Source: a virus
Taxonomy: Duplodnaviria; Heunggongvirae; Uroviricota; Caudoviricetes
Length of the DNA: 4,853 nt
Strand: one strand, 5' to 3'
Virus record (IMG/VR): IMGVR_UViG_2681813316_000023
Coordinates: 1-4,853 of that record
Shown: piece by piece, positions 122 through 4,853 of the stretch
Position numbering within the stretch: the first letter of the stretch is position 1
Layout of the letters: the number at the start of each line of letters is the position of its first letter
Translations under genes and position numbers: made by a program
Notes under the pieces: model-generated
Databases searched by the model: none
What the model was told of the DNA's origin: nothing
Seen by the model: only the letters and a program-made list of their open reading frames with translations

Positions 122-158
122 TAAAAAAAGCCAGCGCCCACTCTGAAGGACGCTGGCT
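121..158 (-). terminator. Intrinsic-terminator-like hairpin oriented for the minus strand (stem 129-136/151-158, A7 tract on the + strand = U tract on the minus transcript)
   Basis: agccagcg (129-136) pairs perfectly with cgctggct (151-158), with two further C:G pairs possible inside the loop; the T/U run lies only on the minus-strand side. Confidence 0.5.
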
Positions 159-413: not shown

Positions 414-620
414 ATGGAAAAAATCACAACGGGTGTGTCATACACCACGTCAGCGGTGGGGACGGGATACTGGTTACTGCAGCTGCTGGACAAAGTCTCT
501 CCGTCCCAGTGGGTGGCAATAGGTGTACTGGGGAGTCTGCTGTTTGGCCTGCTGACGTATCTGACTAACCTGTATTTCAAAATCAGGGAGGACCGCCGTA
601 AGACGGCGCGGGGAGACTAA
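414..620 (+). CDS. S: Class II holin (pinholin, phage 21 S21 / E. coli essD family), 68 aa
   Basis: Translation [68 protein letters not shown] closely matches my recollection of S21(68)/EssD: two TMDs, the first Gly/Ala/Ser-rich, and a charged C-terminus ...[13 protein letters not shown]. Start placed at ATG 414, not the track's GTG 345, because GTG 345 lies inside the terminator hairpin and homologues begin at M-(D/E)-K. GGAG at 399-402. Confidence 0.85.
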
Positions 621-624
621 AGCG

Positions 625-1614
625 ATGAAGAAAAAATACGAACTGGTTGTTAAAGAGATAAATAATTACCCGGATAAGATTGCTGTTACTGTGGCACTTG
701 AAATTGGCGGGCATCCGTCGTTGTTGTTGCCACATGTGGCGATTAGTCTTGACCGTACTGAAGGTGCCACGCTGGAGTTCTACGAAGCTGAGGCGAAAAA
801 ACAGGCGAAGCAGTTTTTCATGGATATTGTTGCCGGGTTATGCGAAGGGGATGAACCGTCACCGGAAAAGCGCCCCGTAATTTTAGATGCGCAGGATGTA
901 TTGATAACCTACAAAGGAAAGCTACCGGGAAGAATTACTTGTTCTCTGAAGATGCCGCCGTCAACACTGCGGTCAGAAAAAGATGATGTTGAATCGCGTA
1001 TTGAAAAACTGGAGTGCTATATCGCTGAATTGAAAAAAAGCACCCCAACAAAAAATGAGGTGCTTGCAGCAGACGAAATGAAAGAAGCTATTCCTGATCG
1101 CGCGGCGAATCTAAGCTGCGCTTCATGGTTGAAAGAGCATCTTCAGCAGCCTGAAAAAAAACGCCGCGATGAGCAGTTTGCTGCGTTTTACGATTATTGC
1201 CGGAAAGTGATGAGCAGAAATCTCGCAGAGTGTTTCAGTATTCATAATGATAATTTCAGTGACCTGGAATGGGAGTGTAACCGGCCATCCTTTGTTGTAT
1301 CCGGTGATGCTGGGAAAATAACCATCTCAGAAAATGGAAAAGTAACACCGCCATCGCACCAGCATAGTGAGGAGCTCATTGAATTTGCCATTGATTACCT
1401 GAAGAACAATAAAAAGCAGGGGCTGATGAAGTGCATTGGTCGTTGCATGGGATATCTGCAGATAGCTGCTGAGATTGAAGCGCTGGCCAGTGGTGCGGAC
1501 AAGGATGCAGTTGTGCGGAAGGCTCTTCTTCGTGATTTTGATAATCCGCCCTTTAAAAAAGTGCCGGCTTACTGGTTTCATCCAGGACTGACTTATCTTA
1601 AAGGACGTATATAA
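625..1614 (+). CDS. Hypothetical 329-aa soluble protein inserted between holin and endolysin (moron/cargo gene); family not recognised
   Basis: Uninterrupted 329-codon ORF co-oriented with the lysis genes; ATG 625 lies 4 nt after the holin stop, with GGGAGA at 611-616. No signal peptide or TMD evident. Charged coiled-coil-like middle (about residues 110-180) and a Cys-containing C-terminal half. Confidence 0.75.
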   Translation: MKKKYELVVKEINNYPDKIAVTVALEIGGHPSLLLPHVAISLDRTEGATLEFYEAEAKKQAKQFFMDIVAGLCEGDEPSPEKRPVILDAQDVLITYKGKLPGRITCSLKMPPSTLRSEKDDVESRIEKLECYIAELKKSTPTKNEVLAADEMKEAIPDRAANLSCASWLKEHLQQPEKKRRDEQFAAFYDYCRKVMSRNLAECFSIHNDNFSDLEWECNRPSFVVSGDAGKITISENGKVTPPSHQHSEELIEFAIDYLKNNKKQGLMKCIGRCMGYLQIAAEIEALASGADKDAVVRKALLRDFDNPPFKKVPAYWFHPGLTYLKGRI

Positions 1615-1656
1615 GCTGGCTCGTTATCTGTTGCCGATAAATCCTGATAAATATCC

Positions 1657-2190
1657 ATGAACACCAAAATCAAATACGGCCTGTCGGCTGCCGTTCTGGC
1701 GCTGATTGCCGCTGGTGCGCCTGCGCCTGACATTCTCGACCAGTTTCTGGATGAAAAGGAAGGTAACCACACCACGGCATACCGTGATGGTGCGGGGATC
1801 TGGACCATCTGCCGTGGTGCCATCATGGTGGATGGTAAACCTGTTGTTCCAGGCATGAAGTTGTCGACGGCAAAATGCGCTCAGGTTAACGCCATTGAGC
1901 GTAATAAGGCGCTGGCATGGGTGGAGAAAAACATCAAAGTGCCATTGACCGAACCACAGAAAGCGGGGATTGCGTCATTCTGTCCGTACAACATTGGCCC
2001 CGGTAAGTGTTTCCCGTCGACGTTTTATAAACGAATTAATGCAGGCGATCGCAGGGGGGCGTGTGAGGCGATTCGCTGGTGGATTAAGGACGGTGGCAGA
2101 GACTGCCGTATTCGCTCAAACAACTGTTACGGTCAGGTATCCCGTCGCGACCAGGAGAGTGCGCTGGCGTGCTGGGGAATTGACAGATAA
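1657..2190 (+). CDS. R: SAR endolysin, T4-lysozyme-like muramidase (GH24), phage 21 R21 / P1 Lyz family, 177 aa
   Basis: N-terminal weakly hydrophobic Gly/Ala-rich signal-anchor-release segment YGLSAAVLALIAAGAPAP. Catalytic triad in the canonical context E35-G-N...R-D44-GAG-IW-T50. Downstream conserved blocks ...KINAGD..GACEAIRWW... match GH24 SAR endolysins as I recall them. Confidence 0.9.
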   Translation: MNTKIKYGLSAAVLALIAAGAPAPDILDQFLDEKEGNHTTAYRDGAGIWTICRGAIMVDGKPVVPGMKLSTAKCAQVNAIERNKALAWVEKNIKVPLTEPQKAGIASFCPYNIGPGKCFPSTFYKRINAGDRRGACEAIRWWIKDGGRDCRIRSNNCYGQVSRRDQESALACWGIDR

Positions 2191-2280
2191 GCAGAATATT
2201 TTGCTGAAAAATGCGGTTTGCTCACACGGACGGATAACACGAAATCCTGCGAACTGACAAAAACTAAGAGAATAAAAGTA

Positions 2281-2320
2281 AAAACCCCGTTTGTTGGCTG
2301 CAAGCGGGGTTTTGTGTTTC
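2281..2320. terminator. Strong hairpin / bidirectional intrinsic terminator between the endolysin and the Rz module
   Basis: aaaaccccgtttg (2281-2293) pairs with caagcggggtttt (2301-2313) around a 7-nt loop; A run before and T-rich tract (ttttgtgtttc) after. Confidence 0.6.
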
Positions 2321-2349
2321 CTGACTCCGGAAAAGTCAAAGGAGAAAGT

Positions 2350-2487
2350 GTGTTTGATTTTAGCAAACTGATTCGGGAGATTCGAGTGATGGCTGAAAAA
2401 TTATCCACCTGGAAGTTCATTCTTATCTGGCTGGTGTTTGTGATTATGGCCTCCGGTTATTTCATCGGTCAGATACGCTGGTGGTGA
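2350..2487 (+). CDS. Small single-TMD membrane peptide (45 aa from GTG 2350, or 32 aa from ATG 2389), translationally coupled to Rz; function unknown
   Basis: AAAGGAG (2338-2344) lies 5 nt upstream of in-frame GTG 2350; a second in-frame start ATG 2389 follows GGGAGA (2375-2380). Product ...MAEKLSTWKFILIWLVFVIMASGYFIGQIRWW has one ~21-residue hydrophobic helix. TGA 2485-2487 is 1 nt from the Rz ATG 2489. Confidence 0.35.
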   Translation: MFDFSKLIREIRVMAEKLSTWKFILIWLVFVIMASGYFIGQIRWW

Positions 2488-2488
2488 A

Positions 2489-2926
2489 ATGAACCGCGTA
2501 CTGTGCGTGGTCATCATTGCCCTGCTGGTGGCCTGTGGTGCGCTTAGTCTGGGGCTGAATCATTACCGTGATAACGCCATAACCTACAAAGAGCAGCGCG
2601 ATAAAGCCACATCCACAATCGCTGATATGCAGAAGCGTCAACGTGACGTAGCAGAACTCGATGCCAGATATACAAAGGAGCTTGCTGATGCTAACGCGAC
2701 TATCGAAAGCCTCCGTGCTGATGTTTCTGCTGGGCGTAAGCGCCTGCAAGTCGCCGCTACCTGTGCAAAGTCAACGACCGGAGCCAGCGGCATGGGCAAT
2801 GGAGAAAGCCCAAGACTTACAGCAGATGCTGAACTCAATTATTACCGTCTCCGAAGTGGAATCGACAAGATAACCGCGCAGGTCAACTACCTGCAGGAGT
2901 ACATCAGGACGCAGTGCTTAAAATAA
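2489..2926 (+). CDS. Rz: Rz i-spanin (inner-membrane spanin subunit), 145 aa
   Basis: N-terminal TMD followed by NHYRDNAITYKEQRDKA...MQKRQRDVAELDARYTKELADA...AGRKRLQV, near-collinear with lambda Rz as I recall it. Contains the embedded +1-frame Rz1. Confidence 0.9.
   Translation: MNRVLCVVIIALLVACGALSLGLNHYRDNAITYKEQRDKATSTIADMQKRQRDVAELDARYTKELADANATIESLRADVSAGRKRLQVAATCAKSTTGASGMGNGESPRLTADAELNYYRLRSGIDKITAQVNYLQEYIRTQCLK
2688..2873 (+). CDS. Rz1: Rz1 o-spanin (outer-membrane lipoprotein spanin subunit), 61 aa, embedded in the +1 frame of Rz
   Basis: AAAGGAG (2674-2680) sits 7 nt before ATG 2688. Signal peptide MLTRLSKASVLMFLLGVSA with lipobox L-G-V-S-A-C, then a Pro-rich mature region CKSPLPVQSQRPEPAAW...LNSIITVSE resembling lambda Rz1. 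ATG 2661 from the ORF track was not used (no SD, over-long signal peptide). Confidence 0.8.
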   Translation: MLTRLSKASVLMFLLGVSACKSPLPVQSQRPEPAAWAMEKAQDLQQMLNSIITVSEVESTR

Positions 2927-3342: not shown

Positions 3343-3963
3343 ATGAAAGATCAAGATGTTAGGTTCGCGGTGCATCATAAGCTTTTGAAAGAATCGCATT
3401 TAGATCCAGACTGCCTTGTGGTCGATGAATTTTCCATATCCCTTGGCGCCAGTAGAGCAGACATTGCTGTAATAAATGGTGTTATACACGGGTACGAGCT
3501 CAAAAGTGAATATGACTCTTTGGAGCGTTTGCCTCTTCAAATCAAGCATTATTCTTCTGTAATGGACAAGGTTACTCTTGTCGTAGCTGAGAAACATCTT
3601 GAGGGAGCATTAAAGTTAATCCCAGGTTGGTGGGGCGTTAAAACGGTTTCTGTTGGGCCAAAAGGCGCCATTCTTATAAAGCACATGCGTGGAGAAAAGC
3701 TTAATCGAAACCATGACACATTGATGCTCGCTCAATTGCTTTGGAAAGATGAATGTATCGACGTACTTGAACGATGGGGCTATTCCAAAGGAATCAAAAG
3801 CAAGCCCCGATTTGAGTTATGGAATATTATTGCGGAAAATATTCCAATAGCGAATCTCAGGCTTGAAGTCAGAACAGCCTTAAAGAAACGCGTAGGCTGG
3901 AAAGTTAAGGCTTGGCAGGCTGAGTCTGCGCCAACCAATAAAGCTGTCTCACGACTAACGTAA
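3343..3963 (+). CDS. PD-(D/E)xK (restriction-endonuclease-fold, Hjc/Mrr-like) nuclease-domain protein, 206 aa, on an AT-rich island
   Basis: Long ORF in AT-rich DNA with a strong SD. Motif E29 (VVDEF) ... D40 (RADIAVING) ... E52-L-K54 (VIHGYELKS) is the arrangement of PD-(D/E)xK nucleases. The C-terminal ~110 residues are basic and Trp-rich with no motif I recognise. Confidence 0.75.
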   Translation: MKDQDVRFAVHHKLLKESHLDPDCLVVDEFSISLGASRADIAVINGVIHGYELKSEYDSLERLPLQIKHYSSVMDKVTLVVAEKHLEGALKLIPGWWGVKTVSVGPKGAILIKHMRGEKLNRNHDTLMLAQLLWKDECIDVLERWGYSKGIKSKPRFELWNIIAENIPIANLRLEVRTALKKRVGWKVKAWQAESAPTNKAVSRLT

Positions 3964-4774
3964 TATGGTGCGTATGTGCAACTTTACGCCATTCTTTAGA
4001 GCCGCCAGATTTGTTAGCGCCTAATGATCTTTGGTAAATGTAATCATCCCCCCAACTAAATTTGGAACCAAAGACTTGATACTCTGGCGAACTAACAAGG
4101 GTAGTACATAAGTTTTTAGTTTGGCCCCATCCATTTCCTTTAACTGCGGTACCTTTTACAAAGATCCATGAGGTATCGTTCGAATATCTCACTGAGACAT
4201 ACTGAGACATGAAGCGTGGGTCTACGCTCGTAATGGTAGAGCTAGCGGTGGGATAATCACTAAAACTTGGCGTTCTTCCATTGCTAAAATTCTGTACTAC
4301 GTACATCCAAAGATCGTATTCATGGCGCGGAATATGATGAACTTGATGTTGCGGTATCCCTGCCTGTGATGCTGGGTATGCGGTTGAAGATAAAATCAAG
4401 TTTCTCCACGGAGCTTGGCCTGATAATGTGTTGACCATGCTTAATGCTTGTTGTTTTAAACTATCAGTTGCGTTTTGAATATCTCCAAAATCAATGATTA
4501 CATCAATTAAACTAGGATGAATATTTAAGTGGTTAACCAGACTTGTGAATTGGTGCCATGTCTGGGGGGTGATAGATATAGCGAGCCCATTGATTAAGTT
4601 GCGTTGAACAGCATGTATATAGTTTGTTGAATATGCGGGAGAAACAACAGGGATAATTTCCTTACCATTTACTCTAGCATCTTGGATACACATATCTAGA
4701 GGATGATGGCGGCTCGAACCATGTTTATCTAAATATTTAACATCCAGCAAAACAGGACGATTGATCCTACCCAC
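3905..4774 (-). CDS. Hypothetical 289-aa protein on the AT-rich island, convergent with and 3'-overlapping the nuclease-like gene; function unknown
   Basis: 870-nt uninterrupted minus-strand ORF in AT-rich sequence, where long ORFs are unlikely by chance. First start is GTG at 4774 with no convincing SD (next ATG is codon 27), so the start is uncertain. No TMD or signal peptide; no motif I can assign. Confidence 0.65.
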   Translation of the reverse strand: MGRINRPVLLDVKYLDKHGSSRHHPLDMCIQDARVNGKEIIPVVSPAYSTNYIHAVQRNLINGLAISITPQTWHQFTSLVNHLNIHPSLIDVIIDFGDIQNATDSLKQQALSMVNTLSGQAPWRNLILSSTAYPASQAGIPQHQVHHIPRHEYDLWMYVVQNFSNGRTPSFSDYPTASSTITSVDPRFMSQYVSVRYSNDTSWIFVKGTAVKGNGWGQTKNLCTTLVSSPEYQVFGSKFSWGDDYIYQRSLGANKSGGSKEWRKVAHTHHITLVVRQLYWLAQTQPAKP

Positions 4775-4853
4775 GTAATATGGACACAGGCCTAAGCGAG
4801 GTTCTGGTTTTCAAATTGTTCCGGACTGAGGCCGCCACACCAACTGTGCCGCC

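What the first reader, a model, noticed from the sequence alone, without database searches (positions are those of the whole stretch)
625..1614. Unrecognised 329-aa gene wedged between pinholin and SAR endolysin inside the late lysis operon
In canonical lambda/21-type cassettes, holin and endolysin are adjacent. Here a ~1-kb gene sits between them, 4 nt after the holin stop, with no promoter or terminator of its own, so it should be expressed from the late promoter at lysis time. That is the same expression logic as lysis-released cargo such as Shiga toxin, or a late-acting host-takeover or counter-defence factor. It has no signal peptide or TMD, so any extracellular role would depend on lysis. 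Small genes at this position have precedent, but I do not recognise this protein.
Basis: partly seen in the sequence, partly recalled or inferred. Interest (0 to 1): 0.7.

Follow-up and report, generated by a model that had tools for sequence, protein, structure and literature searches.

The report
YdfR-family gene in prophage lysis cassette
The 329-codon gene between the holin and the endolysin is real, but it is a full-length member of the common, already catalogued and still uncharacterised YdfR/DUF1327 family of E. coli and Salmonella prophages, so it is ordinary in occurrence and open only in function.

Summary
An intact 329-aa ORF (625-1614, +) starts 4 nt after a phage-21-type class II holin and ends 42 nt before a SAR-type lysozyme. 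It has no transmembrane segment and no promoter-like site of its own.

It is not unrecognised. It matches Pfam DUF1327 (E 8e-39) and PHROG 1085 over its full length (E 2e-179), and NCBI's PGAP names it 'YdfR family protein'.

The position is also usual. K-12 Qin has essQ-ydfR-rrrQ. Of 70 sampled S21-type cassettes, 52 carry an insert between holin and endolysin, nearly all with YdfR-family modules. In total, 491 of 5426 complete E. coli genomes hold at least 80% of this gene, and 2389 hold part of it.

New here:
- The protein is a mosaic of an N-terminal YdfR module, a linker, a coiled coil, and a conserved, unnamed C-terminal domain with no detectable fold relatives.
- The same architecture occurs at 27-45% identity in Salmonella prophages, there between Q and the holin.

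Function is unknown. The best lead is that K-12 YdfR residues 1-72 bind the catalytic half of RNase E (PMC13232886). I infer a late-phase cytoplasmic factor that docks on RNase E or RNA (about 0.3). Toxin, antirepressor and defence readings have no support.

The parts
414..620 (+). Phage-21-type class II holin (pinholin family by homology), 68 aa. There is no upstream in-frame Met.
   Evidence: PF04971 E 1.4e-32 and PHROG 'holin'. PGAP names it 'class II holin family protein' in a near-identical locus.
610..615 (+). GGGGAG Shine-Dalgarno-like run for the 329-aa gene, inside the holin's 3' end and 9 nt before the ATG.
   Evidence: Read directly from the sequence. Its function is inferred.
625..1614 (+). 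Full-length YdfR-family gene, 329 aa plus stop.
   Evidence: DUF1327 E 8.4e-39. PHROG 1085 E 2e-179 over residues 1-329. 'YdfR family protein' in RefSeq. dN/dS 0.17-0.53.
625..858 (+). N-terminal module (aa 1-78), three beta-strands then a long helix, corresponding to the DUF1327/YdfR core.
   Evidence: 40% identity to K-12 YdfR over 75 aa. AF2 pLDDT is about 70-86 for E5-14, E18-27, E37-43 and H50-73.
859..990 (+). Linker (aa 79-122), predicted disordered and variable between family members.
   Evidence: pLDDT 22-34. Variable or absent in alignments.
991..1269 (+). Helical, coiled-coil-like segment (aa 123-215). It includes a central stretch of about 33-40 aa that the 296-aa variants lack.
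   Evidence: Helices 112-138, 143-162 and 180-205. Weak GCN4-type coiled-coil matches only. Alignment A1.
1270..1611 (+). Conserved C-terminal domain (aa 216-329) with no Pfam name. Invariant residues are H247, G272, R273, L278, Q279, A281, A282, P309, K311, W317, P320, G321, Y324 and L325.
1615..1656 (+). 42-nt spacer before the endolysin. A 36- or 42-nt spacer is constant across E. coli loci, and there is no obvious Shine-Dalgarno sequence before the R ATG.
   Evidence: 78 of 83 loci have R 36-42 nt downstream. Sequence.
1657..2190 (+). SAR-type T4-lysozyme-family endolysin, 177 aa.
   Evidence: PF00959 E 3.8e-24 and PHROG 7 endolysin. The Gly/Ala-rich N-terminus and the E-x8-D-x5-T motif are read from the sequence.
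2489..2926 (+). Rz-type inner-membrane spanin, 145 aa.
   Evidence: PF03245 E 2.3e-37 and PHROG 13.
2688..2873 (+). Rz1-type outer-membrane lipoprotein spanin embedded in the +1 frame of Rz. The listed ORF starts at 2661, but the likely start is the ATG at 2688 before the lipobox LLGVSAC.
   Evidence: ORF list and sequence. The assignment is by analogy with lambda Rz1, from established knowledge.

Best explanation
Identity (about 0.95): the gene encodes a full-length member of the YdfR/DUF1327 (PHROG 1085) family. This is an accessory, highly mosaic, cytoplasmic protein of lambdoid prophages of Escherichia, Shigella and Salmonella. It is encoded at the 5' end of the Q-dependent late operon, and in E. 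coli always between the class II holin and the SAR endolysin.

Mechanism (inferred, about 0.3): the protein is made together with the lysis proteins. Its N-terminal three-strand-plus-helix module docks on the catalytic N-terminal half of host RNase E and/or on RNA, as reported for K-12 YdfR residues 1-72. The central coiled coil makes it oligomeric. The conserved C-terminal domain supplies a second, still unknown binding or catalytic activity. The net effect would be to change RNA decay late in infection, either protecting the long late transcript or speeding host mRNA turnover. In that respect it would work like the RNase E N-terminal binders T4 Srd or RapZ without being related to them.

Shown: family membership, architecture, position, selection and distribution. 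Inferred: late expression, transfer of the RNase E interaction from YdfR (40% identity) to this protein, oligomerisation, and any effect on RNA. The confidence value given (0.3) is for the mechanism.
For: - Family: DUF1327 132 bits against a 25-bit cut-off. PHROG 1085 full length, E 2e-179. PGAP name 'YdfR family protein'.
- Position: K-12 essQ-ydfR-rrrQ. S21-type holin upstream in 81 of 83 loci and R 36-42 nt downstream in 78 of 83 E. coli C-domain loci.
- Salmonella homologues at 27-45% identity keep the N module, coiled coil and C domain. They lie between Q and the holin, next to SAR-type lysozymes.
- Purifying selection: dN/dS 0.17-0.53.
- Cytoplasmic: no transmembrane segment.
- No own promoter-like site.
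- RNase E lead: YdfR(1-72) gave two-hybrid signals with Rne 1-597, Rne 1-598 co-eluted with Strep-YdfR, and RNA co-purified (PMC13232886).
- The YdfR-type N module occurs fused to the same linker, coiled coil and C domain in the 296-aa protein P0025, which is 81% identical to YdfR.
- The paper itself draws the Srd and RapZ analogy.
Against: - The window protein's N module is only 40% identical to YdfR, so the interaction may not transfer.
- In PMC13232886, ydfR overexpression changed few transcripts and did not affect growth, and the authors could not exclude a contaminant as the source of the co-purified RNA.
- 22 of 83 E. coli loci carry a coiled-coil-plus-C-domain gene with no N module, so the C domain must have a role independent of RNase E docking.
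- Many prophages carry only truncated forms, so the function is dispensable.
- No structural or sequence relative suggests RNA binding or catalysis.
Confidence: 0.3

Rival explanations
1. It is a cytoplasmic lysis-timing regulator. The protein would bind the charged cytoplasmic C-terminal tail of the pinholin, or act on SAR-endolysin export or release, and so delay or sharpen lysis. This is analogous to the cytoplasmic T4 co-antiholin RIII or to P1 LydB.
For: - In E. coli the gene is always inside the lysis cassette, 0-4 nt after the holin stop and 36-42 nt before R.
- The Salmonella homologues also neighbour a class II holin and a SAR-type lysozyme.
- The holin here has no second upstream start that could give an antiholin form.
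- RIII and LydB are known from the literature, not tested here.
Against: - 18 of 70 cassettes do without any insert, and many others carry truncated genes.
- In Salmonella the gene is outside the holin-endolysin pair, sometimes separated from the holin by an opposite-strand gene and with a different holin family, PF16080.
- There is no similarity to any known lysis regulator.
- Overexpression of K-12 ydfR gave no growth or lysis phenotype.
Confidence: 0.2
2. This is the first reader's reading: a late-expressed cargo released at lysis (a toxin or effector), or a counter-defence or host-takeover factor.
For: - It has the same transcriptional position as the stx and nanS-p cargo downstream of Q.
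- The Salmonella homologues sit in the Q-to-holin cargo region.
- GC and GC3 (45% and 44%) are lower than in the flanking lysis genes (54% with 67%, and 54% with 59%), as for acquired cargo.
Against: - No toxin, antirepressor or enzyme domain.
- No PADLOC match.
- No signal peptide or transmembrane segment.
- No fold relatives.
- Counter-defence proteins are usually made early, not with the lysis genes (general knowledge).
- The family is confined to Escherichia, Shigella and Salmonella: only 73 clusters at 50% identity among 1.84 billion representatives, and 3 loci among 185,579 species genomes.
Confidence: 0.1
3. The protein has no function for the phage, or the insert acts only in cis. On this view the insert is a drifting, recombining passenger. 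Its main consequence is to uncouple endolysin translation from the holin, replacing a 1-nt stop/start overlap with a 42-nt spacer that lacks a Shine-Dalgarno sequence.
For: - Extreme mosaicism, with many truncated or frameshifted forms of 89-176 aa and 135-161 aa.
- Cassettes without an insert have S and R overlapping by 1 nt.
- The spacer before R has no obvious Shine-Dalgarno sequence.
Against: - dN/dS is well below 1 in both domains.
- 16 residues of the C domain are invariant between E. coli and Salmonella at about 35% identity.
- The three-module architecture is kept in another genomic position.
Confidence: 0.1
4. It is a gene that benefits the lysogen. It would be expressed from the repressed or cryptic prophage under stress, for example cold, and would contribute to host envelope or RNA physiology rather than to phage growth.
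For: PMC13232886 cites database evidence for cold-stress induction of the Qin ydfR cluster, and a genetic screen linking ydfR to envelope integrity. The family persists in cryptic prophages such as Qin.
Against: There is no promoter-like site upstream or inside the gene. RNA-seq in that paper found almost no ydfR reads under standard growth. The data concern the 103-aa K-12 form only.
Confidence: 0.1

Closest known systems
E. coli K-12 YdfR (b1555, Qin prophage; Pfam DUF1327)
   Same: - Homologous N-terminal module: 40% identity over 75 aa, and the DUF1327 HMM scores well above its cut-off.
- Same position, 4 nt after a class II holin and directly before the lysozyme.
   Different: YdfR is 103 aa and has only the N module. 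The window protein adds a linker, a coiled coil and a 114-aa conserved C-terminal domain. The YdfR-type N module also exists fused to that C-terminal part (P0025, 81% identical to YdfR).
PHROG 1085 / 'YdfR family protein' of Stx phages (for example BCI50300.1 of Stx2a phage Stx2_95, and orf5 of Stx2 phage 86)
   Same: Full-length match (E 2e-179), the same 329-aa length and the same position. The whole lysis region is 95.8% identical at DNA level.
   Different: Essentially none, because this is the same gene. All are annotated as hypothetical or of unknown function.
Salmonella enterica prophage hypothetical proteins (P0144, P0198, P0201 and others)
   Same: Same order of three modules, with 16 invariant C-domain residues. 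They lie in the late operon next to a class II holin and a SAR-type lysozyme.
   Different: Only 27-45% identical, and the N module falls below the DUF1327 cut-off. They are located between Q and the holin, not between holin and endolysin.
RNase E N-terminal-half binders: phage T4 Srd and E. coli RapZ
   Same: Only a possible functional analogy. K-12 YdfR binds Rne 1-597/598, as Srd and RapZ do (PMC13232886).
   Different: No sequence or fold relationship was detected. Srd is an early T4 protein. The interaction has not been tested for this protein.
Cytoplasmic or accessory lysis regulators (T4 RIII, P1 LydB, Mu endolysin regulators)
   Same: They are encoded with lysis genes, and some are soluble cytoplasmic proteins (from the literature; the Mu paper PMC9239132 appeared).
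   Different: There is no homology, and no evidence that YdfR-family proteins alter lysis timing.

Membership tests
Pfam DUF1327 / PGAP 'YdfR family protein' | Score above the Pfam gathering threshold for PF07041. | tested here: met
   132.1 bits against a 25-bit cut-off, E 8.4e-39, residues 1-100. RefSeq copies are named 'YdfR family protein'.
Pfam DUF1327 / PGAP 'YdfR family protein' | Encoded directly after a class II (S21-type) holin and before the lysozyme, as ydfR is in Qin. | tested here: met
   4-nt gap after the holin and 42 nt before R. K-12 essQ-ydfR-rrrQ. Surveys.
Pfam DUF1327 / PGAP 'YdfR family protein' | Single-domain protein of about 100-115 aa. This typical family length is recalled from the Pfam description, so it is from memory. 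| tested here: not met
   The protein is 329 aa, and DUF1327 covers only residues 1-100. It is therefore a long-form member with extra modules.
PHROG 1085 | End-to-end match to the family profile. | tested here: met
   E 2e-179, residues 1-329 against profile positions 1-296 of 296.
   No such family at E <= 0.1 in Pfam, and none in NCBIfam.
Holin / antiholin | At least one transmembrane segment. | tested here: not met
   The highest Kyte-Doolittle 19-residue mean is 1.09, and there is no holin family hit.
Known anti-phage defence proteins (PADLOC-DB) | A match to a PADLOC model. | tested here: not met
   0 families at E <= 0.01.
Secreted toxins (Shiga-toxin-like cargo) | A signal peptide and a recognisable toxin domain. 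| tested here: not met
   No hydrophobic N-terminus, no toxin domain, and no fold match.
RNase E N-terminal-half binding proteins (a functional class, not a homology family) | Physical binding to Rne residues 1-597. | not testable with these tools
   Reported for K-12 YdfR residues 1-72 by two-hybrid assay and co-purification (PMC13232886). The window protein's N module is 40% identical.

The most novel reading that the evidence does not exclude
Full-length YdfR-family proteins could be a so far undescribed class of late-phase regulators in lambdoid phages, including Shiga-toxin phages. A modular N-terminal docking domain would tether an unknown, conserved C-terminal effector domain with no recognisable fold to RNase E. 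That would reprogramme RNA decay, or alternatively time pinholin and SAR-endolysin lysis, and so affect burst size and toxin release.
Probability: 0.2. Interest if true: 0.6.

Novelty: already known. Interest (0 to 1): 0.3.

Why it matters
The family is one of the commonest uncharacterised genes in E. coli prophages. Part of this gene is found in 2389 of 5426 complete genomes, and it sits inside the lysis cassette of Shiga-toxin-converting phages, directly downstream of stx and nanS-p. If it modulates RNase E or lysis timing, it would influence phage burst and toxin release.

This analysis adds three things:
- The long form with three modules, not the 103-aa K-12 YdfR, is the form conserved between E. 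coli and Salmonella.
- There is a well-conserved C-terminal domain that no database names.
- The one published biochemical lead, RNase E binding, can be tested directly on these long forms.

As a discovery in this window it is ordinary, because the gene, its family and its position are already catalogued.

Tried and rejected
- **Sequence searches for a function.** Pfam, NCBIfam and PADLOC gave nothing beyond DUF1327. A relaxed Pfam scan of nine C-domain sequences gave only DUF6200 in 2 of 9 (best E 0.005), which I judged to be noise.
- **PDB sequence profiles.** The full-length profile matched only coiled-coil proteins (E >= 0.1). The C-domain profile's best match was a PhoU homologue at E 0.013 over 35 residues, which I rejected.
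- **Zinc site.** The conserved Cys and His in the C domain suggested one, but the cysteines are replaced by Ser or Ala in the Salmonella homologues.
- **Tail-fibre relationship.** Two Salmonella homologues gave weak PHROG matches in their linkers (E 8e-5 to 4e-4). The window protein does not match, and the match is probably to coiled-coil sequence.
- **Failed or uninformative searches.** A genome-contig scan with the full-length alignment failed for lack of a conserved stretch. The literature holds nothing on 'YdfR family' and only one incidental mention of DUF1327.

Full report
**1. The observation**

The window carries a typical lambdoid late lysis region.
- A 68-aa phage-21-type class II holin lies at 414-620 (PF04971, E 1.4e-32).
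- A 329-aa ORF lies at 625-1614.
- A 177-aa T4-lysozyme-family endolysin lies at 1657-2190 (PF00959). It has a Gly/Ala-rich signal-anchor-release-type N-terminus and an E-x8-D-x5-T motif.
- After a 300-bp gap come Rz (2489-2926, PF03245) and an embedded Rz1 lipoprotein frame.

The 329-aa ORF starts 4 nt after the holin stop. A GGGGAG run lies 9 nt upstream of its ATG, inside the holin gene. The ORF ends 42 nt before the endolysin ATG.

It is not a chance ORF. The longest ATG-ORF in 300 shuffles of the window was 199 aa. Pairwise dN/dS against homologues is 0.17-0.53 in both the N- and C-terminal parts.

There is no transmembrane segment. There is no + strand promoter-like site between 345 and 2200, and only one weak terminator-like pattern inside the coding region.

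**2. It is a recognised family, and the position is the usual one**

- The protein matches Pfam DUF1327 at 132 bits against a 25-bit cut-off, over residues 1-100.
- It matches PHROG 1085 end to end (E 2e-179). That PHROG is of unknown function.
- In RefSeq, copies 99.9% identical at DNA level are named 'YdfR family protein'. In total, 491 of 5426 complete E. coli genomes hold at least 80% of the gene, and 2389 hold part of it.
- E. coli K-12 has the same arrangement in the cryptic prophage Qin: essQ, a 4-nt gap, ydfR (103 aa), then rrrQ.
- The Stx2a-converting phage Stx2_95 has a 329-aa homologue in the order stx2AB, esterase, holin, this gene, endolysin. Stx2 phage 86 has a YdfR-family gene under the same match.

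I surveyed 70 IMG/VR contigs that carry a close relative of this holin together with an endolysin.
- In 18 of them S and R are adjacent, usually overlapping by 1 nt.
- In 52 there is an insert of 358-1316 bp. Nearly all of these inserts contain YdfR-family modules. Three hold an unrelated 687-bp insert.

In a second survey of 83 loci that encode the C-terminal domain, 81 have the S21-type holin upstream. In 66 of those it lies within 10 nt. In 78 loci the endolysin follows 36-42 nt downstream.

An insert between holin and endolysin is therefore the majority state in this type of cassette, not an anomaly.

**3. Anatomy**

Alignments and the AlphaFold models divide the protein into four parts.
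- An N-terminal module, aa 1-78: three strands and a long helix, pLDDT about 70-86.
- A linker, aa 79-122, predicted disordered.
- A helical, coiled-coil-like segment, aa 123-215.
- A C-terminal domain, aa 216-329: a small beta-sheet followed by helices, core pLDDT 71-90.

The family is strikingly mosaic. The holin-endolysin position can hold any of the following.
- N-only proteins of 86-116 aa, and a 176-aa form that adds the linker and part of the helical segment. The N-only forms include the YdfR type.
- Genes of 185/186 or 213 aa with the coiled coil and C domain but no N module (22 of 83 loci for the 185/186-aa form).
- Full forms of 268, 296/297 and 329 aa.
- Frameshifted remnants.
- In one locus (L028), a coiled-coil-plus-C-domain gene followed by a separate, divergent 75-aa N-like gene.

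The N module comes in two alleles. The window type is 40% identical to K-12 YdfR. The YdfR type occurs fused to the same linker, coiled coil and C domain in the 296-aa protein P0025, which is 81% identical to YdfR. K-12 YdfR therefore corresponds to the N module alone.

The gene has lower GC and GC3 (45% and 44%) than the flanking holin (54% and 67%) and endolysin (54% and 59%). This fits an acquired module.

**4. Distribution and distant relatives**

The family is tiny and taxonomically narrow.
- Only 73 clusters at 50% identity match among 1.84 billion representative proteins.
- A scan of one genome for each of 185,579 species, using the most conserved C-domain pattern, confirmed only three loci, in Escherichia and Shigella.

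The most distant relatives, at 27-45% identity, are Salmonella enterica prophage 'hypothetical proteins'.
- They keep the same order: a three-strand-plus-helix N module that falls below the DUF1327 threshold, a coiled coil, and the C domain.
- Sixteen C-domain residues are invariant: H247, I256, L259, G272, R273, L278, Q279, A281, A282, P309, K311, W317, P320, G321, Y324 and L325.
- In three Salmonella contexts the gene lies between the Q antiterminator and the holin, not between holin and endolysin. The holin is of the PF16080 or the PF04971 family, and the endolysins again have SAR-type N-termini.

The conserved association is thus with the start of the late operon and with a class II holin plus SAR-endolysin cassette, rather than with the exact holin-endolysin position.

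**5. Function**

No search gave a functional assignment.
- Pfam, NCBIfam and PADLOC found nothing beyond DUF1327.
- PDB sequence profiles gave only coiled-coil noise.

The single experimental lead is a 2026 study, PMC13232886.
- K-12 YdfR, through residues 1-72, gave two-hybrid signals with the N-terminal catalytic half of RNase E.
- Rne 1-598 co-eluted with Strep-YdfR, and RNA co-purified with it.
- Overexpression changed few transcripts and did not affect growth.
- The authors compare such binders to phage T4 Srd and to RapZ.

My best-supported model follows from this. The protein is made with the lysis proteins. It docks on RNase E and/or RNA through its N module, oligomerises through the coiled coil, and brings along the unknown activity of the C domain, so that RNA decay changes late in infection. 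I put this at about 0.3. Late expression, transfer of the interaction at 40% identity, and any effect on RNA are all inferences. The existence of genes without an N module also shows that the C domain has a role of its own.

The rivals are as follows.
- A cytoplasmic regulator of pinholin and SAR-endolysin timing (0.2). The conserved neighbourhood favours it. The many cassettes without the gene argue against it.
Only the position and the base composition speak for it.
- A passenger whose main effect is to uncouple endolysin translation from the holin (0.1). Purifying selection and cross-genus conservation argue against it.
- A gene that serves the lysogen under stress (0.1).

**6. Verdict**

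It is a known, catalogued, widespread family of unknown function in its usual place.

There is no homology to a known lysis accessory or structural protein, and the gene is not ubiquitous core machinery. Even so, 'unrecognised' and 'unusual' do not hold.

The remaining interest is that a gene this common in E. coli and Shiga-toxin prophage lysis cassettes has no known function. It has a conserved, unnamed C-terminal domain, and there is now a directly testable link to RNase E.

Noticed in passing
window 3343-3963 (+) and 3905-4774 (-): A converging gene pair downstream of Rz. One is an sce7726-family protein (NCBIfam NF033832, E 2.3e-54; PADLOC model 'cll'). The other is a 'beta family' protein (PF14350; PADLOC PD-Lambda-2_C-like, E 1.4e-25). 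Together they look like a candidate anti-phage defence cassette in the prophage's cargo region.
   Followed up: partly
window about 4775-4853: The terminus of an IS3 element, 100% identical to 'IS3 family transposase' elements in thousands of genomes. It cuts off the 5' end of the beta-family gene, leaving 289 aa here against an intact 355-aa gene in strain B-1109.
   Followed up: yes
window 2191-2488: A 300-bp gap between endolysin and Rz. It holds a 14-bp-stem hairpin at 2281-2313 flanked by A and T runs, which looks like a bidirectional terminator in the middle of the lysis cassette. It also holds a small ORF (2389-2487) encoding a 32-aa hydrophobic peptide. In some Stx phages an ant gene appears among the genes of this lysis region.
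   Followed up: no
L001 6001-6990 (NZ_CP027548.1): PGAP annotates only the first 336 nt of an intact 329-codon copy as a 'YdfR family protein, missing C-terminus' pseudogene, although the ORF reads through. This looks like an annotation artefact caused by the short YdfR reference.
   Followed up: yes
window 414-620: The holin is 68 aa and has no upstream in-frame Met, so it appears to lack the dual-start holin/antiholin motif described for phage 21 S. That motif is recalled from memory. Strain B-1109 has a 71-aa version.
   Followed up: no
window 625-1614 against its flanks: The YdfR-family gene has GC 45% and GC3 44%. The holin has 54% and 67%, and the endolysin 54% and 59%. The compositional history therefore differs within one operon.
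   Followed up: partly
window 1038-1065 (- strand): A terminator-like hairpin followed by a T run on the minus strand, inside the central segment of the YdfR-family gene that only the 329-aa variants carry. It is probably coincidental.
   Followed up: no
L011 4204-4895, also L040 and L062: In 3 of 70 cassettes the holin-endolysin position holds an unrelated 687-bp insert with a 104-aa ORF on the opposite strand. The position therefore accepts other cargo too.
   Followed up: partly
Proteins P0201 (aa 93-183) and P0168 (aa 92-176), Salmonella homologues: The linker and coiled-coil region gives weak PHROG matches to the central tail fibre J and to tail-fibre proteins (E 8e-5 to 4e-4). The window protein shows no such match, and the cause is probably coiled-coil composition.
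   Followed up: no
window 129-158 and 333-359: Two terminator-like hairpins lie between the upstream esterase gene's end (about position 122) and the holin. The first is on the minus strand, with an A run upstream of it on the + strand. The second lies immediately before the holin. They would have to be read through by Q-modified polymerase.
   Followed up: no
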